A stretch of DNA of 20,000 nt, from positions 17,430,326-17,450,325 of the forward strand of contig NC_057749.1 in assembly GCF_004010195.1 (NCBI RefSeq). The letters are read 5' to 3'. Source of the stretch: Chiloscyllium plagiosum. Its lineage: Eukaryota. Shown here piece by piece: positions 1 through 18,275 of this stretch. Within the stretch, counting starts at the first letter, position 1. The number at the start of each line of letters is the position of its first letter. The notes under the pieces were generated by a model that was not told where the DNA came from, searched no databases, and worked only from the letters and a program-made list of their open reading frames with translations. A program made the translations under genes and the position numbers.

Positions 1-370
1 AAAGACAGTTAACCACCATCCCACCGACATTCAGCCGGATATCCAAGATGCATTGCAGAAATTCATCATAGATCCTGAGACAACACCTTCCAAACCCATG
101 ACCATTTCCATCTGGAAGGACAAGGGTAGCAGGTAAATGGGAATGCCATCACCTGCAAGTTCCCCTCCACACCACTCACCATTCTGACTTGGAAACATAT
201 CTTCAGTGTCACTTGGTCAAAAATTCTGGAATTCCCTCCTTAATGGCATTGTGGGTCAACCCACAGCAGATGGACTGCCATGAGTCAAGAAGGCAGCTCA
301 CCACCACTTTCTCAAGGGCAGTAAATGCTGGCCAGCTATCGATACCCACATCCCACAAATAATGGGTGGT
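1..370 (+). mobile_element. Decayed 3' end of a CR1/L2-group LINE (same family as 3020-4980, opposite strand)
   Basis: Blocks such as 'cctgcaagttcccctcca', 'aagaaggcagctcaccaccac' and 'aaatgctggccagc...cccacatc' are reverse complements of blocks at ~3600-3620, 3455-3478 and 3037-3066. Boundaries approximate. Confidence 0.75.
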
Positions 371-1353: not shown

Positions 1354-1592
1354 GTAAGTGTGAAACTCTACAATCAAATCTAAGGTTCTCATGGACAAAG
1401 CAGCAAAATTGATTCTCAAGGAAACTGGGTGGATGCAACAAGCTGAAAAATAACATCAGAGATTCACATCTGCATAAAATTTATGGAATGAGACGTTTCC
1501 CTATCTACATTGGAGGGCCTCCATTAAATGGGTTTTGGCAAAGACAGCCTATTTCTAACTGGACAGAGGCAGGCTTGGCAGAAATAGAAAAG

Positions 1593-1802
1593 AGGTAAAA
1601 ACAATGACTGCAGATGCTGGAAACCAGATTCTGGATTAGTGGTGCTGGAAGAGCACAGCAGTTCAGGCAGCATCCAAGGAGCAGCGAAATCGATGTTTCG
1701 AGCAAAAGCCCTATTCCTGATGAAGGGCTTTTGCCCAAAACATCGATTTCGAAGATCCTTGGATGCTGCCTGAACTGCTGTGCTCTTCCAGCACCACTAA
1801 TC
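1593..1802. mobile_element. Penelope-derived fold-back mini-element with 14-bp TSD
   Basis: Inverted arms 1629-1712 and 1724-1807 (84 bp, a few mismatches), 11-nt loop. Direct repeat CAGAAATAGAAAAG at 1579-1592 and 1803-1816. Homologous to the Penelope terminus at 9975-10091. Confidence 0.88.
1713..1748 (+). ncRNA. Degenerate minimal hammerhead ribozyme motif
   Basis: ATTC-CTGATGA-A-GGGC-TTTT-GCCC-AAAAC-ATC-GATT. The conserved GAAA is changed to AAAA (1737) and GTC to ATC (1742), both consistent with CpG decay. Confidence 0.7.
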
Positions 1803-2090
1803 CAGAAATAGAAAAGGTTTGCAGTGCACCTTTTATTGTTTATAAGGAAGCTTGTTGCTTGGGGAGAATGAAGAAATCTTTATTTAGTAATTAACCGGTA
1901 TACTTATGTCAGAGTCATGAATGCCAGTGCTTGAGTGTGATTTTGAAAGGGTTCCATTAGTATCCCAAGTAACCTTGTTATGCTCAAAATTTGCAAATTT
2001 TATTTTAACTAAGACTCTTCCTCTGTAAGTTAACGATGTCTTACATTCATACTTAAAGGAATATTTTATCTTTTTGCTTTACCTTTTCAG

Positions 2091-2207
2091 ATCACTGACC
2101 TGGACACTGATGACTGCAAGAAGGATACATTTGTGGATGTTGTTTTTAAGAAATCCCTTAAAGAGTTCCGTTTAAATATATTCAACTCTTATTCGGCAGC
2201 TTTAGCG
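2091..2207 (+). CDS. MYO9A: MYO9A internal exon: ITDLDTDDCKKDTFVDVVFKKSLKEFRLNIFNSYSAALA
   Basis: ttttcAG acceptor at 2090; GCG|GTGAGT donor; 117 nt, phase 0-0; not in the ORF track. Confidence 0.95.
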
Positions 2208-2588
2208 GTGAGTGTAGGTTCAGATCGATGAGGATTTTGACCATATATTGATGGAATGGAAGGTGAAACGAAGCAATCATTGTAAGCTGTAAATTACGTA
2301 ATGAGAACTTTTTACTGTTGCTTTTTGATGATCTAGACTGATTTGTTTTTCTTATCCTGTAGAATTGCCTTCATTCCATCTATAAATTTTTGTTTGAGGG
2401 AGTAGAAAATTATCAAAGCTGCTGCTGAATTATCATCTATTTTCTAGGAGGGAGCAATTTATTCTTAACTTACAATAAATCCAACATATTAAGTTGAAGT
2501 ATCGCACCAAAGATTAAGTGGCAGGGAGGGATAGCATGACCCTAGCTATGATACTCTTTTGTTCAGTGTAATGGTATTTCTGTCACAG

Positions 2589-2777
2589 ATGGACAATGGG
2601 AAGAGCATTCGGTACAAAGATTTGTATGCGCTATTTGAGCAGATTCTGGAGAAGACGATGAGACAGGAGCAACGTGATTGGAATGAGTCTCCGGTCAAAG
2701 TGTGGGTCAACACCTTTAAGGTGTTCCTAGATGAATTTATGATGGAATACAAAATTCTGGAGAATAACACTGGAAAG
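2589..2777 (+). CDS. MYO9A: MYO9A internal exon: MDNGKSIRYKDLYALFEQILEKTMRQEQRDWNESPVKVWVNTFKVFLDEFMMEYKILENNTGK
   Basis: cacAG acceptor at 2588; AAG|GTGAGA donor; 189 nt, phase 0-0. Confidence 0.95.
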
Positions 2778-3019
2778 GTGAGATGTTTAAGATATTTAGC
2801 TCAATTTGTTTGAGATGTACATAGGTAAAAATCCAAGATTTGTAATGTAGGACCACAGATATTGAAATAATAACCACAAAAGTGAGGTAAGTCAAGAAGT
2901 AATTAGATGGCACCAAGTATTAACTTTAAGAGACCATGAGGATGAGCAAGGGGGGAGGGAGAGACGCGAATATAGCAAGCTTTGACCATCTTGAAAAGCA
3001 TGATTGTGAAGGACCTTTG

Positions 3020-4980
3020 TTTTATTCACTCATAACGATGTGGGCATTGGTGGCTGGCCAGCATTTTCTTACCCATCCCTAGTTTTTCCACAGAATTCCT
3101 GCAGTGCAGAGCAGGCCATTTGGCCCATAGAGTCCGCACTGACCCTCCAAAGAGCATCCCACCTGGACCACCCACAACTCCCTACCATGCACCTGTAACC
3201 CTGCATTTCCCATGGCTAATTCATCTAGCCCACATATCCCTGGACACTATGGATCAATTAAGTGTGGCCAATCCACCTGCGCTGCACATCTTTGGACTGT
3301 GCGAGGAAACCGGAGCATCAGGAGGAAACCCAGGCAGACACTTGGCGAATGTGCAAACTCCACACAGACAGTCACCTGAGGTGAAATGGAACACAGGCCC
3401 ATGGTGCTGTGAGGCAGCAGCGCTAACCACTGAGCCACCATACTGCCCCAAGAATGTGGTGATGAGCTGCCTTCTTAAACTGTTGCAGTCCAATGCTGTA
3501 CATTGATTCACAATGCTGTCAGGAAGGGAATTGCAGGATTTTGACCCAGTGTCAGTGAAAGAGTGGCAACATGTTTCCAAATTTGAACGGTAAGTAGCTT
3601 GGAGGGGAACTTGCAGGGGATGGTGTTCCCATATATCTGCTGTCTTTGCCCTTCTAGATGGAAATGGTTATGGATTTGGAAGGTGTTGCCTAAGGATCTT
3701 TGGTGAATTTCTGCAGCACGTCTTGTAGTTACAGCTGCTGCTAAATGTTGATGGTGGAGGGAGTGATTGTTTGTAGATGTGCTGCAACACACTCCTGGCT
3801 AGTGCCTTGTAGATGGTGGACAGGCTTTGGGGAGACAAGAGATGAGTTACTCGCTGCAGATTTCCTAGTTCTGATCAGCTATCTGTATTTGTGAAGAGTC
3901 CAGTTGATTTTCTGGTCAATGCTAACCCCAAGGATGCTGATAGTGGGGAATTCAGTGATGGTAACACCATTGAATGTCAAGGGGCAGTGATGAGATTGTC
4001 TCTTACTGGAGATGATCATTGCCTAGCATTTGTTTGGCGCAAATGTTACTTGCCACTTGTCAACTTAAGCTTGGATGTTGTCCAGATTTTGTTGTATTTG
4101 TTCATGGATTGTTTCAGTATCTGAGGAGTTGCAAATGTTGTTGAAAATGCGTGGGCCAAGGACACTACCCTGAGGAACTCTTGGAGCTGAGATAACTGAC
4201 CTCCAACAGCTGCAATCATCTTCTTATATGTCAGGTATGACTCTAAGCACTGGCAAGTTTGCCCACTGATACCCATTGATTCCAATTTTGCCAGGCCTCC
4301 TTGATGCCTCACTCGGTTGAATGCAACCTTGATGTAGAGGGCATCACTCTCACCTCACTTGTGGAATTTAACCCTTTTGTCCATGTTTGAACCAAGGCTG
4401 CAATGAGGTCAGGAGCTGAGTGGCCCTGATGGAACCCAAACTGAGTGGCCCTGATGGAGCATGTTATTGCTCAGCAAGTGTTGCTTGATAGCACTATTGA
4501 TAACATCTTCCATCACTTTACTGTGGTTGAGAGTAGACTGGTTGGATTTGTCCTGCTTTTTGTGGGACAATTTTCTAGTTGTTGTGTAGATGCTGGTATT
4601 GTAGCTGTATTGGAACAGGAGAGCAACAAGTTCTGGAGTATGAATCTTGAGTATTACTACTACCACAATGTTATCAGGCCCATATCCTTTGCAGTGTCCA
4701 GTGCATTCAACTGTTTCTTGATGTCACATGGAGTGAATTGGGTGAAGACTGTTATCTGTGATGCTGGGGCTACTGGAGGAGGCCAAGATGAATCATTCAC
4801 TTGCCAATTCTGGCTGAAGATTGCTGTGAATGCTTCACCCTTATCTTTTCCACTAACCTGGGCTCTTGTATCATTGAGGATGGTGTGATTTGTGGAACCT
4901 CGGTGAGCTGTTTAATTATCCAGCACCGTTCACAACTTGTGGCAAGAATGCAGAGCTTAGACATGATCCATTGGTACATG
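3020..4980 (-). mobile_element. Decayed CR1/L2-group LINE (RT region to 3' end), interrupted by a SINE
   Basis: Minus-strand fragments KKQDKSN...SKVMEDVINSAIKQHLLSNN and LAKLESMGISGQ...LESYL resemble non-LTR RT; a VPQGSVLG-like coding stretch lies at ~4155-4180; many frameshifts. Boundaries approximate. Confidence 0.8.
3089..3447 (-). mobile_element. tRNA-derived V-SINE (HE1-like), full length ~360 bp
   Basis: Minus strand begins GGCAGTATGGTGGCTCAGTGGTTAGCGCTGCTGCCTCACAGC (tRNA-like A box), followed by the V-domain core TGTGTGGAGTTTGCACATT...GGGTTTCCTCC...GCTCCGGTTTCCTC...CAGTCCAAAGATGTGC and a CR1-like tail ATGGGCCAAATGGCCTG...GAATTCTGTG. Confidence 0.85.
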
Positions 4981-5600
4981 GTAATCAGCAGCAGGCTTTC
5001 TTGGCCCTGTTAAACCTGAAGCCTTGAGACTTCAATGTTAATGACTCTGAGGATAGGTGGGAATTCAAAAAGGCTCTGAAATCATAACTCGATTTCCCTT
5101 AACGGCCTAATTGGCATAGGCACCATTCTATACCATTTTAATCATGTGCTTGTGCTGAGTTAGACGAGATGAACTGTGACGATGTTAATGTGTGTTCTGG
5201 TGAAATCGTCCAGGAATTCTGCTGCTGCTTGCAATCTAGTGGCCCCTCCTATTGATAGTTTTTGAGGACAGGTTTGAACTCATTTGTCATTCTCGTCATG
5301 ATTCTTTAGTCTGCCAACACTGTCTGGACTCTTGCAAGTTGAATTCCTATTTGAAATGCTGTTGGCATCTGTGAAAACAAACCTCGAGTTTAGCTGTTCA
5401 TGAGAGTAGTTTGTGGAAAAGTAAAAGTGATGGAAAGCCCAAGATTGATCAGATTTGTTAATTATATCAGTGAAGTAAGTGTCTAGTTTTACATTCTAGC
5501 TTGTGTGATTCCCTGACTGCCTGTTGCCTAGAAACATGGGTGTGGGTGTATGCATGTGCGGGCACATTCACTCACGTAAGAATCCGACTTTGTTTCACAG

Positions 5601-5648
5601 GCGCAAAAAGTTGAAAGAAAGAAGAGACGGAAGAAAGAAACTGACATT
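5601..5648 (+). CDS. MYO9A: MYO9A small exon: AQKVERKKRRKKETDI (polybasic stretch before the C1 domain)
   Basis: tttgtttcacAG acceptor with a CTCAC branch-like motif at 5571-5575; ATT|GTAAGT donor; 48 nt, phase 0-0. Confidence 0.93.
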
Positions 5649-6639
5649 GTAAGTAATTGAGTATTGTCAGACTCCCAGTCACGTTCTTTGTCTGTTTCAC
5701 CAAACTCTGTGTTCCATTAATCTGTTAATGCACTCCAGTTGCACCTATTTCCAACCTGAGCTAACTGTTGTCCTCCGTATACTTATTCAGGCATCTGAAA
5801 TTATTATTTGCAGGGATTTATTGTACTCTTTAGTAGAATTACCCTTCATACAGCACAACAGGAACTGCACTGTGTTTATGGAGCCTTTTTCTGTATTGTG
5901 CTACCTTATCAATTGACTTATTTCTTGAAAAGCAAAAGCAATAACTGCTCCAAGAAGCTATAATGATAGAAAGTGGGTGACAAAGTTCACTTTGTCTTTG
6001 TAGCATCAAAAACTTGAGTCTAGTTTGAACGATAATGTTATTTTTGAAATATCACATATTTCCAAGTAAATTCAGGACCTCTCTTACTCTCTATACTTTC
6101 TTTAAGCCACCTGGTTCTTTAAACCAGCCCTGTTGAGAGGTATAAGCTATTTAAATACTTTTGAGTAATCAGATCTGCTAATAGTAAAGCTTCAGGTTTC
6201 TAATATTCCTGCTTTGCAGTGATTCCAGCTATACAAAACATTGTGTTTGATATTTACACCATTCCTGTCTTAAGTATATTGTCTCATTTCTAGACTGACA
6301 CCTAGTGTTGACACCCGGTTTGTGACTGAATATATGTCGTGTAAAAAATCCTCATGGACTTATCTCATAACACATTTACCTAGTAATCTTGGACCTTCTA
6401 AATCTGTGTATAATTGTTTATTTGCGTACAGTTCATAAAATGTGAAATACTGTTAAGACAGACTTGAGTGAATGCAAAATACCAGCAATAAATAGTGTTG
6501 CACAGAAATTACCCGACAGCGCAAACGAATTTAATTAAAATTTGTCTCCATTGTTGGTTTTCCATGTCCTATAGTGAGTAACATCCAGTCACACTCATGT
6601 CTTATGTTTGTCATGTACATATGATCATATGTGAAGCTC

Positions 6640-7835
6640 TTTTGTTGGAGGTGGAAGGGAGAAAGAAACTTAGTGAAATTAAAATCATTACAGAAGCAGT
6701 ACCAAGCAAAGCAATGAGTTGTGGACTAGCAAACCTGAATCCAGATGTCCAATATAGGGTATAAGAAGAAGTCACTTGTGGGCAATTAAATGCATTTGTG
6801 GTAATTTTCCAAAATTTCCCAGATTCAGAAAAAGTTCCACCAGACTGTAGAGTAGCAAATATAACCACTGTTCAAAAAGGGAGGGAAGATAACGGGGAAC
6901 CAGAAGCCAGCTAGTTTCACCTCTTTTGTGGGGAAGGTGTCAGAATCATTCATTAGTTAGCTTACAGCTGGACATTTAAAGGTTCTAGACAATTAGGAAG
7001 ATACAACATGGATTTGTAAAAAGGAAATCACGCTTAACCAATTTATTAGACCAATTTATTTAGTGGCCCATGTGCTGGGCATGCACTGAAGACATGTTGT
7101 TTTTGGATTCCAGAAGGCAGTTGTGGAAAATATGTGTTCATAGTGTAGTAGGTAATATATTAGCATTGGTAGAAGATTGGCTGAAAATAGCCCTTGTCTC
7201 ATTGGCACGTTGTCATAATGGAGTCCCGCTGGGGCCTCAGCCTTTTACAGTTTGCATCAATGACTTAAAGGAATTTAACGTAGAAGTAAGGATTTTATGG
7301 TTCATTTTAAGGGTCAATTGTGAGAACCACATCTCAAGCACTGTTTTCATCTCCTTGTTAAAGGAAGGAGCAAATGTATTGGAAGTGGTTCAGAAAAGGT
7401 TCAGAGGATTGCTATCCGGAAGGAGCAGTTGTCTCCTGAGAATAGATTTGACAGGCTAGGCTGGTTTCCACTAGAATTTAGAAGAATGAGATTGAACTTG
7501 ATTGAAGTGTATAAGATCCTGAATAATCATGACAAGGTTGGCATAGAAAGGATGCTTCCTTGTGGGTCATTCCAGATGGGGAGCACTGCGTTTAAATTAG
7601 GGGTCACCTTGTTAGAACCAAGATGAGAACTTCTTTTCTCATAAAAGATTCGGTGACTTGGAATTCTGTCTCAGACATTATAGAAGCCTTGACATTGAAC
7701 ATTTTTAAGGCACAGGCAGATTGTCTTGCCATCAAGAATCTTATCAAAGGTTATCAAGGGTATATGGATATGTGGAAATCAAAACACGTGCAAGGATGTG
7801 CATATGATTGGCCGCCATATGCTCCTATTTCATAT
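6640..7835 (+). mobile_element. Highly decayed CR1 LINE with internal deletions
   Basis: Fragments PPDCRVANITT..KKG, GVPLGPQPFTVCINDL, LEVVQKRF, LEFRRMRLNLIEVYKIL, and a CR1-like 3' tail. Confidence 0.85.
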
Positions 7836-8083
7836 ATTGAATTTGTGTATTTTTATTCTAATTTAATGGTGTGTTCAATTGATGTTGAACTATTAGAAGT
7901 ATGTTTATTTTAATGCTTAAGAGTGTCTATTGTAGTGAAGCATCCCACCATTTGAGTGCAGTAGAAGTACTGGAATTAATTTTCTTTTGAGGTGATGGGA
8001 ATGATACAATTTTTTGAACAGTATTTTATCGCTGTCCCTAAATATTAGAATGATTTTTATGAGCCAGATATATCTGATTACAG

Positions 8084-8195
8084 GTGGAGGAGTACAATGG
8101 TCATATTTTCAAATCTACACAGTACAGTATTCCCACCTACTGTGAATGCTGTTCCTCCCTTATCTGGATGATGGACAGAGCCTGCGTCTGCAAGT
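8084..8195 (+). CDS. MYO9A: MYO9A exon, N-half of C1 zinc finger: VEEYNGHIFKSTQYSIPTYCECCSSLIWMMDRACVCK
   Basis: ttacAG acceptor; T|GTAAGT donor; 112 nt, phase 0-1; H-x12-C-x2-C pattern of C1 domains. Confidence 0.95.
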
Positions 8196-8399
8196 GTAAG
8201 TTCCTACAGATATTGCACCAAAATTGAAGAGCAGACAAAAACTTTTGCTTTCAAGAAATTTTTACTTTTTTAATAAATTCTGTTTCCTCATAGTATGGCT
8301 GTTACTTGTCATATTCCCTCGTCTGCCTTTTTCCTTGAAATATATCTAAATGTCTGTAAGGGGCCATTTGTTCTGTCTACTTCCATAATCTATTATCGA

Positions 8400-9385: not shown

Positions 9386-9659
9386 TTCATAATACCCTCA
9401 CAGCTAGGTGAAGCAGCTTTACCTGTTGGCTTTTGCCTTGAGAACGTTTAAATATTTATTGTATCCAGTTTTATTTGTATGAATCCATGTGGACTAATGG
9501 GGTAAATATCTTATCGATTGTGGTGATTACAATATTACAACACTTGTGCATTTAAATCAAGCTGGTCAACTGAATTGCATCTTTCAAAATTAACTTCAGA
9601 TAAAAATGTCTTTGCATATGTTGTGTTGTATGTTAGGCTACTTTTCACCTCTCTTTCAG

Positions 9660-9721
9660 TATGTAGGTATGCTTGCCATAGAAAGTGCTGCTTGAAAACT
9701 ACGATCAAATGCTCCAAAAAG
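9660..9721 (+). CDS. MYO9A: MYO9A exon, C-half of C1 domain: (L)CRYACHRKCCLKTTIKCSKK
   Basis: ctctttcAG acceptor; AAG|GTAAGT donor; 62 nt, phase 1-0; completes C-x2-C-x4-H-x2-C-x7-C. Confidence 0.95.
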
Positions 9722-9844
9722 GTAAGTTGTCTTGAATTAGCAGAGCTTCAAATTCTTTTTGAGCAATGCTCTGAGAGTGGCAGCTTTGCAGTTTTAAGCC
9801 ATTCTTGTTTTTCAGACTTTACAAGACAATGTTCACTGAAACAT

Positions 9845-9948
9845 GAGTGAATCAGATGAGTTTTTTTTGACAATTGACAATGGATTCAGGGTCATGATTA
9901 TATTCTTAATTCTAGATTTTTATTAAATTCGAATACCACCATTTGTTG
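9845..9948 (-). mobile_element. Probable SINE fragment
   Basis: 'aatcagatgagttttttttgacaattgacaatggattcagggtcatgatta...ttaattctagatttttattaaattcgaataccacc' resembles a recalled shark SINE consensus; from memory only. Confidence 0.4.
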
Positions 9949-10055
9949 AAATTAGTTGAGACAGTTTTGATTCAGGGAGAAAGTGCGCACTGCAGATGTT
10001 GAGAGTGTGGTGCTAGAAAAGCACAGTCGATCAGGCAGCATCCGAGGAGCAGGAG

Positions 10056-10091
10056 AATCAGCGTTTCAAGCATAAGCCCTTCATCAAGAAT
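10056..10091 (-). ncRNA. Degenerate hammerhead ribozyme motif in the Penelope 3' terminal repeat
   Basis: Minus strand ATTC-TTGATGA-A-GGGC-TTAT-GCTT-GAAAC-GCT-GATT; core C3 and the cleavage triplet are mutated. Confidence 0.7.
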
Positions 10092-10125
10092 GGGGCTTGT
10101 GGGCCAAGGAGGCTGTGAGATAAAT

Positions 10126-10142
10126 GGGGGGGGGGGGGGGGG
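10126..10142 (+). repeat. G17 homopolymer inside the Penelope 3' region
   Basis: 17 consecutive G. Confidence 0.9.
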
Positions 10143-12588
10143 TCCAAGTTGGAAGGTTGGATCTGGAATGAGGTGGAAGGAGGGGATATGAGGAAACTGG
10201 TGAAATCCACATTGATGCCATGTGGTTGGAGGGTCCCATGGCAGAAGATGAGGCATTCTTCCTCTAGGCATTGGGTGGTAAAGGTTTGGTGGTGGAGGCG
10301 GCCCAGGACCTGAATGTCCTTGGGGGAGTGGGAGAGGGAGTAAAAGTGTACACCCACAGGCGGTGCGGTTGTTTGCTACATGTGTCCTGGAGGTGTTCTC
10401 TGAAGCGTTCCTCAAGTACCTGTCCTGCCTCAAAAATGTAGAGGAGACCACATTGCGAGCAATGGATACAGTAAATGACGTGTGGAAGTGCAGGTAAATC
10501 TCTGACAGATGTGGAAGGCTCCTTTGGGACCTCGGATGGAGGTAAGGGGAAGGTGCTGGGTGGGGGGGTGTTGGTGAAGGGCGTGGACCTGACGAGAGTC
10601 ACGAAGGGAATGGCCTTTACGGAACGTGGATAGGGGTGGGGAGGGAAATATATTCCTGGCAATGGGGTCTGTCTGTAGGTGGCGGAAATGCCGGAGGATG
10701 ATGCGATGCATCTGGAGGTTGGTGGAGTGGAAGGTGAGGACCAGGGGAGTGCTCTCCTTGTTGCAGCTGGAGGGTGGAGTTTAAGGGCGGAGGTGCAGGA
10801 AGTGGAGGAGATGTACTGGAGGGCATCGTCGGCCATGTGGGAGGGGAAATTGCGGTCTTTGAAGAAGGAGATTATCTGGTCTGTTCGTTGGTGGAATTGG
10901 TCCTCCTGGGAGCAGGTGCAGTGGAGGCAGTTGAATTGGGAATAAGGGGGTAGTGTTTTGACAGGAGGCATGGTGGGAGGAGGTGTAGTCCAGGTAGCTC
11001 TGGGAATCGATGGGTTTGTAGTAGATGTCCGTGTTGAGTTGGTCACCATTAATGGAGATGGAGAGGTCCAGGAAGGGGAGGGAGGTTTCAGAGATGGTCT
11101 AGGTGAACTTATGATCGGGGTGGAATGTGCTGGTGAAGTTGATGAACTGTTCCAATGTCCTCGTGGTGCTGATACAGTCATCGATGTAGCAGAGGAAAAG
11201 TTGGAGAATGGCGCCGGTGTAGCTGCGGAAGATGGACTGTTCCATGTACCTGACGAAGAGATAGGCATAGCTGGGGTACATGCTACCCCGGTGATCTGGA
11301 TGAAGTGGGAGGATTCAAAGGAGAAATTACTGTGGGTGAGGACCAGTTCAGCCAAACTAACAAGAGTGTCAGTGGAAGGGTACTGGTGGGGATGATGGGG
11401 GAAGAAGGAATGGAGGGCTTGGAGGCCTTCATCATGACAGATAGATGTGAATAGGGACTAGATGTCCATGGTGAAGATGTGGCATTGGGGGCTGGGGAAA
11501 TGAAAGTCATGGAGGAGGTGGAGGGAGTGGGTGGTGTCTCGAACATAGGTGGAGAGTTCCTGGACCAGGGGGGATATGACTGTTTCAAGGTATGTGGAGA
11601 TGAATTTGGTGGGGTAGGAGCAGGCCAAGACGACGGGTCGGCTGGGGCAGTCATGTTTGTGACTTTTGGCGTAGGAGGTAGAACCGGCCGTGTGGGGTTC
11701 CCAGACTGAGGTTTGGAGGCTGTGGGTGGCAGATCCCTTGAGGTGATGAGGTTGTGTATGGTCTGGGAGATGATAGTTTGGTGATGGGAGATGAGGTCAT
11801 GATCAAGCGGTCTGTAGGTGGAGGTGTCTGCAAGTTGGTGCCTGGCTTCAGCAGTGTAGAGGTCAGTGCGCAAACTACCAATGCTGCCAGGACATTGACT
11901 GCCTCAACTTGTCGTCCTTTGCTGCAATAGTTTATCAGTTCAGCCCTAGATCTTTTCTTGTTTTAGAATGTTTTTCTTTTAAGGCTTTTAATTTTTCTGA
12001 CTTTCCAGTTGGAAAGAGAGGGGGGGTTTGGGAGAGATGGATGCTTTCTGCCTTCAGGCTATTTTTTCTGTTCTTTGCTGCCTTTGATTCTTAATCTTTT
12101 TAACAGTACAGCTCAATTGGACAGGGTTGTTGTCAGGCAGAATTTTTTTATAAGCTGAAATGACATGGTGCCATTCAGTCTCAGATTCTTGCACTCACTG
12201 CTTCAAACAACAGCATAAAATCTCAGCTCAAAAAATACGCAGCACCTGATTTTTTTTTTAAGTTCTACAACACTTCTATTTCAGTCCAACTTGCAATTTC
12301 ACTTTATATTTCCTAAAATAAAAAGTATGTGGTCTCTACACAAGATAATTATTAGGACCTATGGCTAGTTTGTTGCTTTCCTCCCTATCTCCAAACATTG
12401 AGACTAATTATGATAATTCTACTGCTGGTTAACTCTACAATTGAAGATGAAAGCTGGGACCTTCCATTGTTTATTATTCAATTCATACTGGACATTACAT
12501 TTTGCTGGCTGAGACATTTGAGGGATTATGGGGGCACTAATTACTCTAGGCTACCATAGCTTTACACAGTCTTCTGTTTGATGTACAG

Positions 12589-12781
12589 TATGACCCCGAG
12601 TTATCATCTCGGCAGTTCGGAGTGGAGGTCTCCAGACTTACCAATGATGAGAGGTCAGTTCCATTGGTGGTGGAGAAACTGATCAACTACATTGAAATGC
12701 ATGGCTTGTATACTGAAGGAATCTATAGGAAGTCTGGATCAACCAACAAAATCAAGGAGCTCAAGCAGGGCCTGGACACAG
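12589..12781 (+). CDS. MYO9A: MYO9A exon, start of RhoGAP domain: [64 protein letters not shown]
   Basis: tacAG acceptor; G|GTAAGG donor; 193 nt, phase 0-1; EGIYRKSG arginine-finger motif (Arg codon AGG 12727-12729). Confidence 0.96.
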
Positions 12782-13222
12782 GTAAGGAAGGCTCCCAAAC
12801 TGGGTACTTTGACAGATTCCACCGGTAGGTTGGAATCTGTTCTGCAGTTCAAAGTGTCACCTTAACATATGTATGCTTAAAACTGAATCAAACAAAATTT
12901 AAGAGTGCAATGAGTAATTCTATCCTAGAGTTTTATAAATACTATGAAGGGCGATAACAAATGTTTTGATGAGATGGGGTGCACTTTTTATGTCATTGCT
13001 TGGTTAAAATTCAATAACATTCCACATTAAGATACTATGTGGATTACAGGTTCAAAAACGTTTACTATTTGTGTGACATACAGGCTTTGCTTTTGGGTGT
13101 CCACATGTCAAAAATATACTTTTAAAATGTGGGATGTAGATGATTCTCATTTCCATATGGAAGCCTTTTAAAACTGCTTGCTATTTCTTTGTTTCTGGGC
13201 TGACTGGGATTTCTTCTTGCAG

Positions 13223-13351
13223 ATATTAACAGCATGAATCTGGATGAGTATAACATTCATGTCATTGCCAGTGTTTTCAAACAGTGGTTGAGGGACCTCC
13301 CTAATCCTTTGATGACGTTTGAACTCTATGATGAGGTTCTGCGAGCAATGG
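13223..13351 (+). CDS. MYO9A: MYO9A RhoGAP exon: (D)INSMNLDEYNIHVIASVFKQWLRDLPNPLMTFELYDEVLRAM
   Basis: ttcttcttgcAG acceptor; G|GTAAGC donor; 129 nt, phase 1-1; K-x-W-L-R-D-L-P-x-P-L RhoGAP motif. Confidence 0.96.
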
Positions 13352-13550
13352 GTAAGCGGGAGTTGTATCCATTCAATTATTTGTGAATCATAGAAATGGA
13401 TTCAGTCATTTTAGTAACATGCAAACGAGATGAAGAAAACAAAGAATTCAGCTTTTGGCTGGCATTTTCTAGTAATATCATATGTAGCTGCTGTGATCAA
13501 TTTTCTGTGTAAGCAATGAACTGTGTGTTTTTGGCCGAATGTAAAATATC

Positions 13551-15348
13551 ATTGAGTTTTTTGAAGAAGTAACAAAAAGGATTGAAGGCTTAGCTGTGGA
13601 CGTTATCTGTATCGACTTCAGTAAGGCGTTCGACAAGGTTCCTCAAGATAGACTGCTTAGCAAGGTTCGGTCACACAGAACAGAAGGAGAACCAGCTATT
13701 TAGATACAGAACTGGCTCAAAGGTAGAAGACGGAGTGGTGGAGGATTGCTTTTCAGATTGGAGGCCTGTGACCAGTGGTGTGCCACAAGGATTGGTGCTG
13801 AGTCTGTTGCTTTCCATCATTTATATAAATGATTTGGATGTGAACATAGGAGGTATGGTCAGTAAGTTTGCAGGTGACACCACAATTGGTGGTGTAGTGG
13901 ACAGGAAAGAAGGTTACCTCAGAGTTTAACCGGACTGTGATCGGATGGGCCAATGCGCCGATGAGTGGGGCAGATGGAGTTTAATTTAGATAAATGTGAG
14001 ATGCTGCATTTTGGAAAGGCAAATCAGGGCAGAACTTATACACTTAATGGTAAGGTCCTGGAGATTACTGCTGAACAAAGAGACCTTGGAGTGCAGGTTC
14101 ATAGCTCTTTCAAAGTGGAGTTGCAGGTAGATGGGATAATGAAGAAAATGTTTGGTATACTTGCCTTTATTGGTCAGTGCATTGAATAAAGGAGTTGGGA
14201 GGTCTTGTGGCTTTACAGAACATTGGTTAGGCCACTATTGGAATATTGCATGCAATTCTGGTCTCCCTGCTCAAGGAAGGATGTTGTGAAACTTGAAAGT
14301 ATTCAAAAAATATTTTCAAGGATCTTCCCAGATTAGGAGGGTTTGAACTTTAGGGAGAGGCTGAATAGGTTTGGCTATTTTCCCTGGAGCGCCAGAGGCT
14401 GAGGGGCGACCTTATAGAGGTTTAGGTCAGTAAGTTTGCAGGTGACACCACAATTGGTGGTGTAGTGGACAGGAAAGAAGGTTACCTCAGAGTTTAACCG
14501 GACTGTGATCGGATGGGCCAATGCGCCGATGAGTGGGGCAGATGGAGTTTAATTTAGATAAATGTGAGATGCTGCATTTTGGAAAGGCAAATCAGGGCAG
14601 AACTTATACACTTAATGGTAAGGTCCTGGCGATTACTGCTGAACAAAGAGACCTTGGAGTGCAGGTTCATAGCTCTTTCAAAGTGGAGTTGCAGGTAGAT
14701 GGGATAATGAAGAAAACGTTTGGTATACTTGCCTTTATTGGTCAGTGCATTGAATAAAGGAGTTGGGAGGTCTTGTGGCTTTACAGAACATTGGTTAGGC
14801 CACTATTGGAATATTGCATGCAATTCTGGTCTCCCTGCTCAAGGAAGGATGTTGTGAAACTTGAAAGTATTCAAAAAATATTTTCAAGGATCTTCCCAGA
14901 TTAGGAGGGTTTGAACTTTAGGGAGAGGCTGAATAGGTTTGGCTATTTTCCCTGGAGCGCCAGAGGCTGAGGGGCGACCTTATAGAGGTTTATAAGATCA
15001 TGAGGGGCATGGATGGGATAAATAGCCATGGTCTTTTCCGCAGGGTGTGGGAGACTAAAACTAGAGGGCATAGGTTTAAGGTGAGAGGGGAAAGATTTAA
15101 AAGGGATCTAAGAAGTGCCTTTTTCACTCAGAGGGTGATGCATGTACAGAATGAGCTGCCAGAGGAAGTGGTGAAGGCTGGTACAATTACAACTTTTAGA
15201 AGGCATCTGCTTGTTTGTATGAATAGAGATGGTTTAGTGGGATGTGGGCCAAGTGCTGGAAAATGGGACTATATTAATTTAGGATATTTGGTTGGCATGG
15301 ATGAGTTGGACCCTAGGGTCTAGTTCCATGCTGTCTATTTTGATTCTT
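13551..15348 (+). mobile_element. CR1 LINE (RT C-terminal half + 3' tail), dead, with an internal tandem duplication
   Basis: DFSKAFDKVP, TSGVPQGLVL, YINDLD, SKFAGDT, MEFNLDKC, HRFKVRGERFKRDLR and a 3' tail; in-frame stops. Confidence 0.93.
13857..14992 (+). repeat. Tandem direct duplication, 2 x 568 bp (13857-14424 / 14425-14992)
   Basis: Copies look identical by eye except 14062 A vs 14630 C and 14149 T vs 14717 C; the ORFs at 13965 and 14533 are offset by 568. Confidence 0.95.
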
Positions 15349-15364
15349 GTCATTTTTGACTCAG

Positions 15365-15835
15365 TTAATTGCTCTTTTCTCTGAGTCAGAAGGTTGTGGG
15401 CTTGGGCCAAGTTCCCAAGATTTATTTATACCGAAGGAGTGCAACCTTTTTGGAAAAGGTTTCCATCTGATTTTGGAAGCTGTAATCCTAATATTAGAGC
15501 TATACATGCTGTAATACCAGCTTACACCTTTTCATGAAGAAAATATTGCATGTGTTTTTTAAGGTTGGGGTTACAGGCAGAAAGAAATCTGGGACCAATC
15601 TTGACACTAGCCACCCAGCCGGTTGAGCCCGAAGGATTCGGAGTTGCTGTGACAACTTACATTAATATATGTATACTGTAGCCTGGAGCTACACATAATG
15701 ATAATGTAGGCTGCAATTTCTCTGCTTCACGTTGTGAAATGACTGCCATGTTTATCTATGAGGTCAAGAGATTTCAAAGTAATTCTGAGTACATGAAGCA
15801 TTTTTGAGAGATGTGAAGCAGCACTGAACGAATAT
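15365..15835 (+). mobile_element. Old Deu-domain SINE relics (SacSINE/AmnSINE-like head at ~15365-15420, tail at ~15725-15835)
   Basis: 'ctctgagtcagaaggttgtggg' head-like motif; the tail 'gtgaaatgactgccatgttt...tcaaagtaattc...tgaagcatttttgagagatgtga' is similar to 16460-16580. Confidence 0.45.
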
Positions 15836-16459
15836 GCCACTTATTGCTAACATGATGTTATTGAGATATCGCATGACTAACCAGGAATCTCTTGCTTTTA
15901 CTGCCTACCATTGGTAAATATCAGAAGGATTTACATGGTTAAATTTAACTTGTTTGGCCATGGTGTACGTACTTTCCTTGGGAGACTTAAGTCTGAGTTT
16001 CTGGCATAAAGACAGGGCTGTTGGGTACTGTTCCACAACTCTCCTAATGGGGTGTTTAGGAAAACAATTTTGGAGTATTGAGATGCTCTACTGGGACATT
16101 CGACTGGGACAAAAATGCCCAGCAAATTAGACTGAAGAGCTAAGGGGCTGAGCAGAAATGTAAGTTGGTAAAATATTGTATATCCCAGTTGGAGTGAGGC
16201 CATGGAAGAATTTGTAAACTAGGAGAAGTCATTAGCAAAAATGGGTAGTAACAGTTCACCATATTGTAAGAGGGACCAAGTGCTGAATAAGTTTGACTCT
16301 TTCTCTGACTGGGTTAAGAAGTCACTGAGATGAATATTGGAGGAATAAACCTGAAAGTAGACAGGTCTCAAAAAAGGCGGGAGAGGGGTCTCCGAATATC
16401 CTGACCAAGATTTCCCCAACACTACCAAGAAACAGATTAAACTGAACACATCTCAGTAA

Positions 16460-16582
16460 ATCTTGCTGTGATAAAATGACTGCTATGTTTGCATAGGTAA
16501 GAAGTCACTGTGTGTGAAGTAATTCAGTGTATGTGAAGCACTTCAAGAGAGGTTTGAGAATATGATAAGGCATTAAGTAAAC
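16460..16582 (+). mobile_element. Old Deu-domain SINE 3' relic
   Basis: 'cttgctgtgataaaatgactgctatgtttg...aagtaattcagtgtatgtgaagcacttc...tgataaggcattaagtaaa' resembles the recalled DeuSINE 3' region; a related copy lies at ~15725-15835. Confidence 0.5.
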
Positions 16583-16872
16583 ACCTTATAATATCTTATC
16601 AAGACAGCTCAATTAAAAAAAACCTGCTGCAGTCTCACTTGCATTGTAAAAATGGTTAAGGCTGGCTTAAAGAACTAATGACCTATTCAAAATTTGGAAC
16701 TGCTTGAGTCAGTGTTGTCCTGTAGACCTGATCTAATTAATCCATCTGATGTTCTGACAGTCACCTTCTCTTTCTAACCTTCCTGAAACGGCTTCTTGTT
16801 GCTGGGATATAGCTTTATCAGAATATACAGTCCTTTGGTGTTTCACCTCAATTTATCATTCTTAGGAGAACT

Positions 16873-16995
16873 GTTCCGACAAAGGATCACAGGATTTGAA
16901 ATGTTAACTATTTTTCTCTCAACAGAGCTGTCTCCTGTTGTTTCTCCTGTACACTGCTTATGTTTCAAAATTGTCAGCATTCACACTCCTTTGAG
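16873..16995 (+). mobile_element. Possible ancient Penelope terminal-repeat relic with eroded hammerhead motif
   Basis: GTT-CCGACAA-AGGATC-ACAG-GATTT-GAAAT-GTT-AAC followed by 'tttctctcaacagagctg...cagcattcaca', in the same motif order as the other Penelope termini. Confidence 0.4.
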
Positions 16996-17259
16996 TGCAT
17001 GCTGATGGGAATTTTAACTCATTTTCATCTCTGTGCTGAGCCTAATTTTAACAACCCTACTACTCCATTAGCTAATTAACTGATTCATTGAAGAACAAGA
17101 ATGCTACTTTGAGCCTTCTTGCTCTATATGATTAAACATTTTAAAAAGTAAATGATATTGATCAGAGTTACAGATTAGCATTCAGTCTTGATATAATTTT
17201 CCACCCCATTATTGAATTGTGCGTTTTGATGAGATAAAAATTACTTTGTATAATTGCAG

Positions 17260-17365
17260 GTCTCCCAGACAGAAAGGAAATAATTAGAGGTGTGTATTCC
17301 ATAATTGATCAGTTGTCTCGAACTCACATCAACACACTTGAACGGCTCATCTTTCATCTTGTAAG
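17260..17365 (+). CDS. MYO9A: MYO9A RhoGAP exon: (G)LPDRKEIIRGVYSIIDQLSRTHINTLERLIFHLV
   Basis: ttgcAG acceptor; AG|GTAAAT donor; 106 nt, phase 1-2. Confidence 0.95.
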
Positions 17366-17633
17366 GTAAATATTTGACTGATATGCATTAGATTTTTAAG
17401 TGTAGTTCTGCAGCAGAAGATTGATCAATTTGCACTTTACCATTTTCTTCATGGTTAAGGGTAAACATTATGTTGGCATTTTAAGTTCTAGATTCAGTTC
17501 ATGCTGGTTATGGGGAAGATTTCATTAAAGGAAAAATGATCCACATCAGAGCAAGAGCATTTTGTCTGAAGTTCTGTCAGACCATTTGTTCTCATCCATA
17601 CTAAATGTTATTGCTTTTCCATTCCTTCACCTG

Positions 17634-17850
17634 TTGAAACTTTATTGCTGGAACAGCACAGCAGGTCAGGCAGCATCCAGGGAACAGGAGATTCGACGTT
17701 TCGGGCACAGGCCCTTCTTCAGGAATGAGGGCCTGTGCCCGAAACGTCGAATCTCCTGTTCCCTGGATGCTGCCTGACCTGCTGTGCTGTTCCAGCAATA
17801 AAGTTTCAACTTTGATCTCCAGCATCTGCAGACCTCACTTTCTCCTCGAA
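17634..17850. mobile_element. Penelope-derived fold-back mini-element with perfect 83-bp arms and 14-bp TSD
   Basis: 17633-17715 is the exact reverse complement of 17728-17810 (12-nt loop). TSD CATTCCTTCACCTG at 17620-17633 and 17851-17864. The tail 'cagcatctgcagacctcactttctcc' matches the Penelope 3' terminus at 9976-10000. Confidence 0.92.
17691..17726 (-). ncRNA. Minimal type I hammerhead ribozyme (Penelope-type), intact core
   Basis: Minus strand AUUC-CUGAAGA-A-GGGC-CUGU-GCCC-GAAAC-GUC-GAAU: stem I AUUC/GAAU, CUGANGA core, stem II GGGC/GCCC, GAAA, palindromic ACGU stem III, GUC cleavage triplet. Confidence 0.82.
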
Positions 17851-18275
17851 CATTCCTTCACCTGGTTGTTTCTAAAATTAATCTACTACCTTGGCCTCAA
17901 GACACTTTAGCAATTGATCATTCAGTTGTTTAACTGTTTTATTATTTCCAACTTCACCCTTTTTAGAAGGTTAGAGTTCTGCTTTGACCTTGTGTACTGA
18001 GCATTGTGCATTGGTAACAGAAAAGTATTTGCCAAATGTAGTTGGTAAGAATACTTTTCATAAATCATAATTATGATTTTTTTGTCAAACTTGCAGCTTA
18101 ACCATCATAAATGTGCAAAAGGTACATCTTGTATATGAAGATTTCCCCACTGCTAGGACTATAGCAAGACCTTCTGTGTATTCCCAGCATATTTTTTTTA
18201 TATTTGCAGAGTTGACAGGTTATCATTGTTTCTCTCTACTCCCTCATTCACCCAACTTAATTGCTGCATTTCCAG

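What the first reader, a model, noticed from the sequence alone, without database searches (positions are those of the whole stretch)
1579..17864. Two divergent fold-back elements share the same inversion junction at the ribozyme boundary
Seen: the elements at 1593-1802 and 17634-17850 are different subfamilies (stem II loop TTTT vs CTGT, CTGATGA vs CTGAAGA, different arm ends), yet their architecture is the same. In both, the tail-bearing arm stops at AGGGC (start of stem II) and the inverted arm starts at ATTC (5' strand of stem I): ...GCCCT|ATTCCTGATGAAGGGC and ...GCCCT C|ATTCCTGAAGAAGGGC. Both have 83-84 bp arms, 14-bp TSDs and short microhomology between TSD and arm end. Each element's arms resemble each other more than they resemble the other element's arms. 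Inference: either a stereotyped mechanism (reverse transcription stalls or switches strand at the ribozyme hairpin and regenerates the palindrome at each insertion), or a distinct non-autonomous palindromic family mobilised by Penelope RT/GIY-YIG. Inverted Penelope termini are known; this precise ribozyme-anchored mini form is the best candidate here for an undescribed system.
Basis: partly seen in the sequence, partly recalled or inferred. Interest (0 to 1): 0.78.

Follow-up and report, generated by a model that had tools for sequence, protein, structure and literature searches.

The report
Mini inverted Penelope retroelement insertions
The two small hairpin-shaped repeats are ordinary by-products of Penelope-like retrotransposons, which often paste in two short head-to-head copies of their end piece, and the joint between the two copies differs from copy to copy.

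Summary
Both fold-backs are real: 84- and 88-nt arms, exact 14-bp target-site duplications, and a 38-40-nt tail on one arm only. They are not a new system. They are ORF-less, head-to-head inverted pseudo-LTR pairs of Penelope-like elements (PLEs). Inverted pLTR, one-sided tail, TSD and a minimal hammerhead motif in the pLTR are all published PLE traits.

The families are huge: 30,787 and 20,188 exact tails. Of 60 tail-anchored copies taken in positional order, 32 are fold-backs and 28 are single-arm.

The shared "ribozyme-anchored junction" is not fixed. At least 29 different centres occur among 50 fold-backs of element 2's subfamily, and about 40 among 50 of element 1's. The window's own centres appear in 0 of 50 each. 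Junctions cluster where single-arm copies also begin, at ATTC, which is probably the RNA 5' end.

The best model is de novo formation at each insertion. Both target strands prime cDNA from two internal start sites, as shown in vitro for an Anolis PLE.

New here is a strict one-tail rule: 22 of 24 arm pairs have one tail and 0 have two. Arms also come from the same template in 29 of 30 copies.

The parts
1579..1592 (.). Left target-site duplication of element 1 (CAGAAATAGAAAAG).
   Evidence: Identical to 1803-1816.
1593..1628 (-). Tail of element 1: a 3' extension present on one arm only. The element's sense strand here is the minus strand.
   Evidence: It has no partner in the other arm. The core 27-mer occurs 20,188 times in the genome and 0 times in the reversed control.
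1629..1712 (-). Tail-bearing (long) arm of element 1. It begins at AGGGC and so lacks the ATTCCTGATGA box.
   Evidence: I4. Aligned with 29 other full-length copies at 91-96% identity.
1713..1802 (+). Tail-less (short) arm of element 1. It starts at ATTCCTGATGA (1713-1723) and carries the minimal hammerhead-like motif at about 1713-1751, with GAAA mutated to AAAA.
   Evidence: The outer end shares CAGAA with the TSD (microhomology).
1803..1816 (.). Right TSD of element 1.
17620..17633 (.). Left TSD of element 2 (CATTCCTTCACCTG).
   Evidence: Identical to 17851-17864.
17634..17727 (-). Tail-less (short, inverted) arm of element 2. It is complete to ATTC plus 1-2 nt. The minimal hammerhead-like motif lies on the minus strand, about 17726 down to 17688.
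   Evidence: I2. The outer end lies at the arm/tail boundary, as in most sampled fold-backs.
17728..17810 (+). Tail-bearing (long) arm of element 2, starting at (A)GGGCC.
   Evidence: Full-length copies are 96-100% identical elsewhere in the genome.
17811..17850 (+). Tail of element 2.
   Evidence: The exact 29-mer occurs 30,787 times in the genome and 0 times in the control. Only 364 of these run on into further unit sequence.
17851..17864 (.). Right TSD of element 2.
9965..10101 (-). Single-arm homologue of the arms plus tail. It is the 3' end of an older, degenerate PLE copy.
   Evidence: (D4: 67-75% identity to the two elements).
10267..11962 (-). Degenerate PLE coding remnant with frameshifts and an in-frame stop.
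   Evidence: ORFs. The ORFs themselves give no Pfam hit. The 397-aa ORF (10267-11457) matches shark and ray proteins at E down to 2.9e-50. Relatives carry RVT_1 followed by GIY-YIG.

Best explanation
Each fold-back is a dead-end insertion product of a Penelope-like retrotransposon: two copies of the same roughly 100-135-nt piece of pseudo-LTR joined head to head, with no ORF between them.

The template is an RNA that begins at or near ATTC, the first base of the hammerhead-like motif. It runs on past the tail. The PLE protein nicks both target strands 13-16 bp apart, which gives the TSD. Each nick primes cDNA synthesis at one of two internal start sites. The proximal site lies at the arm/tail boundary and gives the arm without a tail. 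The distal site lies about 38 nt further 3' and gives the arm with a tail. Both cDNAs run to, or close to, the RNA 5' end. Their ends are then joined by host repair, with trimming, 1-3-nt microhomology or filler. That is why the centre differs in every copy.

Shown here: the anatomy, copy numbers, variable centres, the shared 5' end hot spot, one tail per pair, concordant arms, and tails that almost never run on into unit sequence.

Shown by others in vitro for an Anolis PLE: nicking and extension of both strands, and two internal RT start sites whose interval equals the tail.

Inferred: that ATTC is a transcription start (Inr-like CTCA+1TTCC), that both cDNAs come from one RNA molecule, and that a protein dimer assigns one start site to each strand.
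For: (1) Anatomy in the window.

(2) Abundance: 30,787 exact tails for element 2's family and 20,188 for element 1's, with 0 in the reversed controls.

(3) Tail-anchored sample of 60 places in positional order on one contig. 32 are fold-backs and 28 are single-arm. 16 of the 28 single arms start within -6..+9 of ATTC. 17 of the 32 fold-backs have both inner ends in that range, and 25 of 32 have at least one. An exact TSD of 10 nt or more was found in 31 of 60 (median 14, range 10-17).

(4) Centres. There are 2,337 fold-back centres in subfamily 2a, with at least 29 distinct forms among the first 50 listed. There are 1,538 in family 1, with about 40 distinct among 50. Many are complete on both sides (GGAAT|ATTCC types) or carry fillers of up to about 20 nt.

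(5) Truncation at the centre affects the tail arm more in 9 fold-backs and the tail-less arm more in 8, out of the 32 sampled.

(6) One-tail rule. Of 24 convergent arm pairs among the first 100 arm ends, 22 have the exact tail start on one arm, 2 on neither and 0 on both. One of the two 'neither' pairs has a tail. Genome-wide, 9,800 of 18,737 arm ends carry the tail.

(7) Arms co-vary. In family 1 the two subtypes (CAGC/GCTG and CTTC/GAAG) are matched between arms in 29 of 30 copies; the window copy is the one chimera.

(8) Only 364 of 30,787 tails continue into the downstream unit sequence seen in a 224-bp tandem array, so cDNA starts inside a longer RNA.

(9) Literature. Inverted 5'-truncated copy plus one-sided 30-40-bp tail (PMC8557442; PMC3846280). 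Both strands cleaved and extended, with two internal RT start sites that define the tail (PMC11167929). Minimal HHRs in pLTRs, and pairs on opposite strands 100-700 bp apart (PMC4209133).

(10) The arms are homologous to the 3' end of a PLE remnant in the window, whose relatives have RVT_1 plus GIY-YIG.
Against: No direct evidence exists for the RNA 5' end at ATTC. The one RNA data set with raw reads that laid on the sequence showed no start or end hot spot.

The in vitro study reports no difference in start-site use between the two strands. That does not by itself predict the strict one-tail rule seen here.

The first 30 best matches to each window element are full-length and near-identical. 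Alone, that would suggest copying as a unit, though that sample is biased towards look-alikes of the query.

Some centres recur: for example one centre in 12 of the 30 best matches, and 5-6 of 50 for several types. This could reflect inheritance rather than microhomology.

A fold-back with a fixed odd junction exists in 192 copies, so fold-backs can be copied through.

The autonomous partner of either young family was not found. The PLE remnant in the window is only 67-75% alike in the arm.

The sampled 60 places all lie on one contig. 5 of them contain masked N runs, and 2 (L067, L068) belong to one complex locus.
Confidence: 0.75

Rival explanations
1. Self-priming (snap-back). One cDNA is made from the tail to the RNA 5' end. 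Its 3' end then folds back and copies itself, giving the second arm. This follows the suggestion made for palindromes at inverted PLE junctions.
For: Arkhipova et al. 2013 interpret palindromes at inverted junctions as self-priming (PMC3846280, passage). The model explains why arms come from one template (29 of 30 concordant) and why only one arm has a tail.
Against: Snap-back from the tail-bearing cDNA predicts that the tail arm is always the complete one. In fact the tail arm is the more truncated one in 9 of the 32 sampled fold-backs and in both window copies, against 8 the other way. Nothing in this model stops the copy-back at the arm/tail boundary. Tail-less single arms exist: 19 of 52 unpaired arm ends. 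The boundary therefore behaves as a start site, as in vitro. Fillers of up to about 20 nt sit at centres.
Confidence: 0.12
2. A distinct non-autonomous palindromic family. A hairpin RNA covering both arms is the template, and the whole 210-217-bp unit is copied each time. Centre variation arises at the hairpin loop during reverse transcription or later in DNA.
For: Full-length copies at 91-96% (element 1) and 96-100% (element 2) identity over the whole unit. Identical centres occur in several copies. 192 dispersed copies share an odd junction. Long palindromes are known to suffer centre deletions (recalled; no paper seen).
Against: Inheritance with erosion can only lose centre sequence. Yet 17 of 32 unbiased fold-backs have both arms reaching ATTC +/- a few nt, and some carry extra upstream bases or fillers. 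There are at least 29 centres among 50 copies of a family that is 96-100% identical elsewhere. Single-arm copies with the same 5' end and the same TSDs make up nearly half of insertions. The mini forms carry none of the sequence upstream of ATTC where a promoter would lie. The 192-copy form shares its 5' flank in 3 of 3 copies examined, so it is part of a longer unit and not a free hairpin element.
Confidence: 0.08
3. A MITE-like DNA transposon with terminal inverted repeats, or a hairpin RNA (miRNA-like) gene.
For: Fold-back shape with a TSD. Sub-threshold Rfam matches to miRNA precursor models: mir-1295 at 39 bits against a gathering score of 100, and mir-722 at 33 against 81.
Against: The element is asymmetric, with a tail on one side. 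TSD length varies from 6 to 17. The outer ends vary. The arms are homologous to a PLE 3' end. Single-arm copies have the same ends. All Rfam matches are far below the gathering scores.
Confidence: 0.02

Closest known systems
Canonical EN+ Penelope-like element insertion architecture: direct and inverted pLTRs, one-sided 30-40-bp tail, TSD. Sources: Arkhipova et al. 2013, PMC3846280; Craig et al. 2021, PMC8557442.
   Same: Head-to-head inverted pLTR next to a direct one. The tail is on one end only. The TSD is variable. There is microhomology at junctions and a hammerhead-type motif in the pLTR.
   Different: Here nothing lies between the two pLTR pieces: no ORF and no second direct pLTR. The whole insert is about 210 bp. 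This mini form makes up about half of sampled insertions (32 of 60).
PAc (Poseidon of Anolis carolinensis) in vitro system, Frangieh et al. 2024, PMC11167929.
   Same: Both target strands are nicked and extended. Reverse transcription starts at two adjacent internal sites whose interval is the tail. The hammerhead lies upstream of the start sites, and its cleavage is not needed. The genomic ends here fit this picture: the arm/tail boundary, the tail end, and only 364 of 30,787 tails running on.
   Different: In vitro, no difference in start-site use between strands was seen. Here one arm has the tail and the other does not in 22 of 24 pairs. The host, sequence and distances differ. Nothing here was tested biochemically.
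L1 5' inversions by twin priming
   Same: The second target strand primes cDNA on the template, giving an inverted 5' segment inside one TSD-flanked insertion.
   Different: In L1 the inverted and direct segments are different, adjacent parts of one RNA. Here both arms copy the same segment from two fixed start sites. No paper in the held library links PLEs with twin priming in substance (search gave 3 incidental hits).
Non-LTR retrozymes, which are tandem hammerhead repeats. The Li et al. 2026 preprint abstract describes them as likely mobilised by rolling-circle transposition, and its title calls them non-autonomous PLE sequences. That they act through circular RNA is recalled from Cervera and de la Pena 2020, not read.
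   Same: The same sequence family also forms 224-bp head-to-tail arrays carrying the motif (L123; spacings).
   Different: The window elements are inverted pairs, not tandems. Nothing here shows circular RNA. The preprint passages seen do not mention inverted mini forms.
Minimal hammerhead ribozymes of metazoan PLEs (Cervera and de la Pena 2014, PMC4209133).
   Same: CUGANGA, an unpaired base, a 4-bp helix II with a 4-nt loop, and GAAA. There is no helix III loop (ACGU / AUCGAU palindromes), and helix I is short at about 4 bp. That paper noted pairs on opposite strands 100-700 bp apart.
   Different: No Rfam hammerhead model scores. Activity is untested. In element 1 the core G of GAAA is mutated.

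Membership tests
Penelope-like element (EN+) | A single ORF with a reverse transcriptase followed by a C-terminal GIY-YIG endonuclease. | tested here: inconclusive
   The window remnant at 10267-11962(-) gives no Pfam hit itself. It matches shark and ray proteins at E down to 2.9e-50. Relatives P0019 and P0027 carry RVT_1 and then GIY-YIG. The remnant is only 67-75% like the two elements in the arm. The true partner of the young families was not found.
Penelope-like element (EN+) | pLTR in inverted, head-to-head arrangement at the 5' side of an insertion. | tested here: met
   32 of 60 tail-anchored copies, including both window copies.
Penelope-like element (EN+) | An optional 30-40-bp tail at one end only. 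| tested here: met
   Tails of 36-40 nt on one arm. 22 of 24 arm pairs have one tail and 0 have two.
Penelope-like element (EN+) | Reverse transcription starts inside the RNA, not at its 3' end. | tested here: met
   Indirect evidence. The unit continues past the tail in tandem arrays, yet only 364 of 30,787 tails continue that way.
Hammerhead ribozyme (type I, minimal PLE form) | Conserved core CUGANGA ... GAAA with helix II between, and helix I closing. | tested here: met
   By reading. Element 2, minus strand: ATTC-CTGAAGA-A-GGGC CTGT GCCC-GAAAC-GTC|GAAT. Element 1 has CTGATGA, but GAAA reads AAAA on that arm. Helix II stems are invariant across subfamilies, so there is no covariation support.
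Hammerhead ribozyme (type I, minimal PLE form) | Match to a curated covariance model. | tested here: not met
   No hammerhead family at E<=1 in the window or at E<=10 in the 541-nt tandem locus. This may be because the minimal form has no helix III loop; I did not check whether any Rfam model covers the minimal form.
Hammerhead ribozyme (type I, minimal PLE form) | Self-cleavage. | not testable with these tools
   Only 1 of 32 sampled fold-backs (L114) has both arms ending at the predicted cleavage site. Most templates were therefore uncut.
Non-LTR retrozyme | Head-to-tail tandem repeats of a unit that carries a hammerhead. | tested here: not met
   The window elements are inverted pairs. Tandem 224-bp arrays of the same family exist elsewhere in the genome.
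MITE / fold-back DNA transposon | Symmetric terminal inverted repeats with a TSD of fixed length. | tested here: not met
   One-sided tail; TSD 6-17 nt; variable outer ends.
miRNA precursor | Score at or above the Rfam gathering threshold. | tested here: not met
   Best match 39.1 bits against a threshold of 100.

The most novel reading that the evidence does not exclude
The strict one-tail rule and the same-template origin of the two arms would mean that a PLE protein dimer makes both cDNAs from a single RNA molecule with a fixed division of labour. One protomer starts at the proximal site for one DNA strand. The other starts at the distal site for the other strand. The trailing polymerase displaces the first cDNA. 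On this reading, mini hairpin insertions are run-off ('strong-stop'-like) products of initiation on the 5'-terminal copy of the start region, and they record in the genome a step of PLE integration that has not been resolved in vitro.
Probability: 0.35. Interest if true: 0.5.

Novelty: new member of a known kind. Interest (0 to 1): 0.3.

Why it matters
Taken at face value the finding is ordinary. It shows the known, if odd, insertion signature of Penelope-like elements in its shortest form, in a genome where these pieces number in the tens of thousands.

Its value is as data. PLE integration is still poorly understood. This genome offers thousands of young, TSD-flanked two-arm products whose ends can be read to the base. 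They show three things. Both strands prime in vivo. The two start sites are used one per strand. Both arms nearly always come from one template.

They also matter for annotation. Such hairpins mimic MITEs and miRNA precursors, and they can confound repeat libraries and assemblies.

Tried and rejected
(1) A tail-only DNA search with 62 nt found nothing because the first-look filter skipped it. I replaced it with exact pattern searches (onward).

(2) RNA evidence. No RNA holder was listed. The lay of four runs gave the following. X23 laid nothing. X22 (poly-A single-cell raw reads) laid 1,112 reads in both orientations. Of what was laid, a share of 0.93 ran on into sequence unlike the reference, and no start or end hot spot was reported. 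Depth roughly doubles at ATTC, but that can reflect the copy number of short versus long forms. The lay is therefore no test of a 5' end at ATTC or of hammerhead cleavage.

(3) I looked for a conserved continuation downstream of 112 tail occurrences in all held loci, hoping to find a 5' pLTR followed by an ORF. None was found. The continuation was later seen only in a tandem array.

(4) L075 and L099, the 'long' copies, turned out to extend only about 300-360 nt upstream and carry no ORF.

(5) Pfam on the window's PLE ORFs gave no hit. Homology was shown through a protein search instead.

(6) The L084-type fixed junction (192 copies) at first looked like proof of a propagating hairpin family. 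Three of 3 copies share the 5' flank, so it is part of a longer copied unit.

(7) Earlier notes of this scan held nothing by place, sequence or words.

(8) The hammerhead cleavage site as the cause of the junction is rejected. The junction lies about 32 nt upstream of GUC|GAAU, and only 1 of 32 fold-backs ends there.

(9) Literature searches found no description of ORF-less mini inverted pLTR pairs as a dominant form, and no quantified one-tail rule. The library lacks most subscription papers. Repbase and Dfam could not be consulted, so these families may already be catalogued there.


Full report
WHAT IS THERE

The window is part of a 3.56-Gb eukaryotic genome.

Element 1 (1593-1802) and element 2 (17634-17850) are near-perfect fold-backs. 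Element 1 has arms of 84 nt at 94% complementarity with 11 nt between them. Element 2 has arms of 88 nt at 98% with 2 nt between them by the tool's ungapped extension. Each is flanked by an exact 14-bp direct repeat. Each has a 36-40-nt stretch on one side only, the 'tail'.

A third, single-arm homologue lies at 9965-10101 on the minus strand. It is the 3' end of a degenerate coding remnant at 10267-11962. That remnant gives no Pfam hit itself. Its 397-aa ORF matches shark and ray proteins at E down to 2.9e-50. Relatives carry RVT_1 followed by GIY-YIG, which is the domain pair of endonuclease-positive Penelope-like elements (PLEs).

THE RIBOZYME LABEL

Read on the strand of the tail-less arm, element 2 has this sequence: ATTC, CTGAAGA, an unpaired A, GGGC-CTGT-GCCC, GAAAC, then GTC followed by GAAT. 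This is the minimal hammerhead layout described for metazoan PLE pLTRs. It has no helix III loop and is thought to act as a dimer (PMC4209133, passages).

No Rfam hammerhead model scores it, either at E<=1 in the window or at E<=10 in a 541-nt tandem locus. Helix II stems never vary among the subfamilies I saw, so there is no covariation support. In element 1 the arm with CTGATGA reads AAAA where GAAA is needed. The label therefore rests on motif and literature. Activity is untested.

COPY NUMBER AND A FIRST, BIASED LOOK

Whole-element searches of the genome returned 40 scored places each. All were full length, at 91-96% identity for element 1 and 92-100% (96-100% for the 30 fetched copies) for element 2. 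That looks like a propagating unit.

When 30 plus 30 copies were aligned with their flanks, each had its own TSD. The arms and tail were conserved. The centre differed from copy to copy, and the outer end of the tail-less arm varied by about 10 nt. Two family 1 copies, L010 and L018, had tails on both arms.

Family 1 has two subtypes at one site (CAGC/GCTG and CTTC/GAAG). The two arms of a copy agree in 29 of 30. The window copy is the one chimera.

AN UNBIASED SAMPLE

The exact 29-nt tail of element 2 occurs 30,787 times, against 0 in the reversed control. The 27-nt tail of element 1 occurs 20,188 times.

I took the first 60 places of the element 2 tail on contig C1 in positional order. These were 30 loci of 3 kb and 30 of 479 nt. 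I aligned them to a natural long copy, L075, with coordinate 1 set at the A of ATTC. The results:

- 32 of the 60 are fold-backs and 28 are single-arm.
- 16 of the 28 single arms begin within -6..+9 of ATTC. The rest are truncated further in (26 to 94) or run further upstream (-38, -295, -299).
- 17 of the 32 fold-backs have both inner ends within -6..+9, and 25 of 32 have at least one.
- The outer end of the inverted arm lies at 82-101 in 26 of 32. Values of 82 and 85 are alignment stops caused by subfamily divergence. It lies at 41-69 in 4. It lies at 124-127 in 2, both weak or diverged matches.
- An exact TSD of 10 nt or more was found in 31 of 60 (median 14, range 10-17), one of 6-9 nt in 6, and none by my exact-match rule in 23.

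Caveats apply. Five loci contain masked N runs. L067 and L068 are one complex locus. All 60 places are on one contig.

THE JUNCTION IS NOT FIXED

A gapped pattern for the fold-back centre of subfamily 2a matches 2,337 loci. The first 50 listed show at least 29 different centres. The commonest types have 5-6 copies each. The window's own centre appears in 0 of 50.

The same test for family 1 gives 1,538 loci, about 40 different centres among 50, and the window's centre in 0 of 50.

Many centres are complete on both sides (…GGAAT|ATTCC…, …GGAATTCC…). Some carry one to a few extra bases that match the sequence upstream of ATTC in long copies. Some carry fillers of up to about 20 nt.

Among the 32 sampled fold-backs, the tail arm is the more truncated at the centre in 9 and the tail-less arm in 8.

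The two window copies, in which the tail arm starts at AGGGC and the other carries ATTC, are two draws from this spread. They do not mark a stereotyped break at the ribozyme boundary. The hammerhead cleavage site lies about 32 nt inside the arm. Only 1 of 32 fold-backs (L114) has both arms ending there.

WHERE THE TEMPLATE STARTS AND WHERE cDNA STARTS

The bases around it (CTCA+1TTCC) fit an initiator. A/T-rich stretches lie about 25-32 nt upstream, both in a long copy and in a tandem unit. This is my reading and is not tested. pLTRs of other PLEs have been reported to hold a TATA box and Inr-like motifs, or the transcription start itself.

At the other end, a 224-bp head-to-tail array (L123) shows that the unit continues past the tail. 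Only 364 of the 30,787 tails continue in that way. cDNA synthesis therefore starts inside a longer RNA, at the tail end or at the arm/tail boundary.

This matches the in vitro finding for the Anolis element PAc. There, reverse transcription starts at two adjacent internal sites, the interval between them is the genomic tail, and both DNA strands are nicked and extended (PMC11167929, main text read in full).

ONE TAIL PER PAIR

Genome-wide, 18,737 exact arm ends of subfamily 2a exist, and 9,800 (52%) are followed by the tail.

Among the first 100 arm ends there are 24 convergent pairs, which are fold-backs. Of these, 22 have the exact tail start on one arm, 2 on neither and 0 on both. One of the two 'neither' pairs has a tail.

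If the arms chose independently at the genome-wide rate, about 6 of 24 pairs would have two tails. By my arithmetic the chance of seeing none is about 5x10^-4.

Of the 52 unpaired arm ends, 33 have the tail and 19 do not, so the proximal site is also used on its own.

[quoted passage not shown] The strictness in two-arm products, together with 29 of 30 concordant arms, is what this genome adds. The in vitro study saw no strand difference in start-site use.

MECHANISM PROPOSED

The mechanism has four steps:

1. The PLE protein, bound to an RNA that begins near ATTC, nicks both strands 13-16 bp apart.
2. One nick primes at the proximal site and the other at the distal site.
3. Both cDNAs run to the RNA 5' end.
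4. Repair joins them with variable trimming, microhomology (for example the terminal AT giving GGAATTCC) or filler.

The steps shown here and by others are listed under Best explanation. That both cDNAs come from one RNA, and that a dimer divides the two sites between strands, is inference. An AlphaFold2 dimer model for PAc is reported.

Because the mini products carry nothing upstream of ATTC, they are probably dead on arrival. Sources would be long copies and tandem arrays.

CAN A FOLD-BACK BE COPIED AS SUCH?

Yes, when it lies inside a longer template. An odd junction, with the inverted arm running to -144 and joined to a direct arm from -71, occurs 192 times on many contigs. In 3 of 3 copies examined (L084, L121, L122) the sequence 5' of the inverted arm is the same, while the 3' flanks differ right after the tail.

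This is a longer unit, or a source locus with 5' transduction, that is read through from the tail. It is not a free hairpin element. It does show that the RT can traverse such structures. It keeps the rival 'propagating family' from being excluded for recurrent centres.

RNA DATA

No listed holder is on record as RNA.

The lay on L075 gave 1,112 reads from one poly-A single-cell run. They lay in both orientations, a share of 0.93 ran on into unlike sequence, and there was no start or end hot spot. A second run gave nothing. This fits passive transcription of many copies inside other transcripts and tests nothing further.

The window carries a RhoGAP-domain exon on the plus strand at 12550-12825. 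If that exon belongs to a host gene spanning the window, the elements would lie in its introns; no gene model was built to check this.

COMPARISON WITH WHAT IS KNOWN

Four points are in print:

- An adjacent inverted, 5'-truncated copy, a 30-40-bp tail at one end and variable TSDs are described as typical of PLEs (PMC8557442; PMC3846280).
- Palindromes at inverted junctions were discussed as self-priming.
- Minimal hammerheads in pLTRs, and pairs on opposite strands 100-700 bp apart, were noted in 2014.
- Tandem hammerhead repeats have been tied to PLEs (2026 preprint, abstract and passages).

The window elements are the shortest possible version of this architecture. My searches found no paper that describes ORF-less mini pairs as the main insertion form, or that quantifies the one-tail rule. 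The library is incomplete, and Repbase and Dfam could not be checked.

VERDICT

Its key generalisation, a shared precise junction, is wrong. The claim of an undescribed system is not supported.

Novelty: a new member of a known kind, with some useful quantitative detail for the still unresolved PLE integration mechanism. Interest: 0.3.

Noticed in passing
window 12550-12825 (+): An open frame with a RhoGAP domain (Pfam E 3.8e-12). The window therefore probably lies inside a host gene. Frames at 9527-9847 and 2535-2810 look like further exons (a cysteine-rich C1-like stretch by eye) but gave no Pfam hit.
   Followed up: partly
window 13846-15072 and 19540-19978: A 568-bp direct duplication at 98-99% identity (13846-14145 / 14414-14713, 14069-14211 / 14637-14779), with an 82-88% relative at 19540-19978. 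Several frames in the window end in the same peptide pattern (…RGDLIEVYKIMRG…), which by recall looks like the C-terminus of a LINE ORF2. Pfam gave no hit for two of them.
   Followed up: partly
window 32-198 and 3571-3737: A 167-nt inverted repeat pair at 80% complementarity, 3.4 kb apart, with further short inverted matches nearby (271-312 / 3451-3492). It may be two copies of another repeat in opposite orientation.
   Followed up: no
L123 (G000:C1:26521960-26522500); also the spacings: Head-to-tail arrays of a 224-bp unit of the same family (hammerhead-like motif, arm, tail and an 89-nt linker). They occur as short arrays of 2-5 units on many contigs, which is a retrozyme-like arrangement. 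The linker holds an ATG about 30 nt after the tail end. Its frame stops after 21 codons, at the TGA inside CCTGAAGA.
   Followed up: partly
L084, L121, L122 (G000:C1:1862370-1865398 and two others): A roughly 450-bp fold-back with a fixed odd junction (192 exact copies in the genome). All three copies examined share the same 5' flank, so it is a longer composite unit or a source locus with 5' transduction.
   Followed up: partly
L067/L068 (G000:C1:467329-470849): Two tails in opposite orientation 492 nt apart, each followed by the same flank sequence, around a CT-rich low-complexity stretch. This is either a larger inverted duplication or an assembly problem at a fold-back.
   Followed up: no
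window 10120-10145: A run of about 17 G (C on the element's sense strand) just upstream of the hammerhead-like motif in the old PLE remnant.
   Followed up: no
window 1687-1751 and 17663-17780: Both fold-backs score as weak look-alikes of miRNA precursor models (33-39 bits against thresholds of 81-100). This is a reminder that such hairpins can be mis-annotated as miRNA genes.
   Followed up: yes
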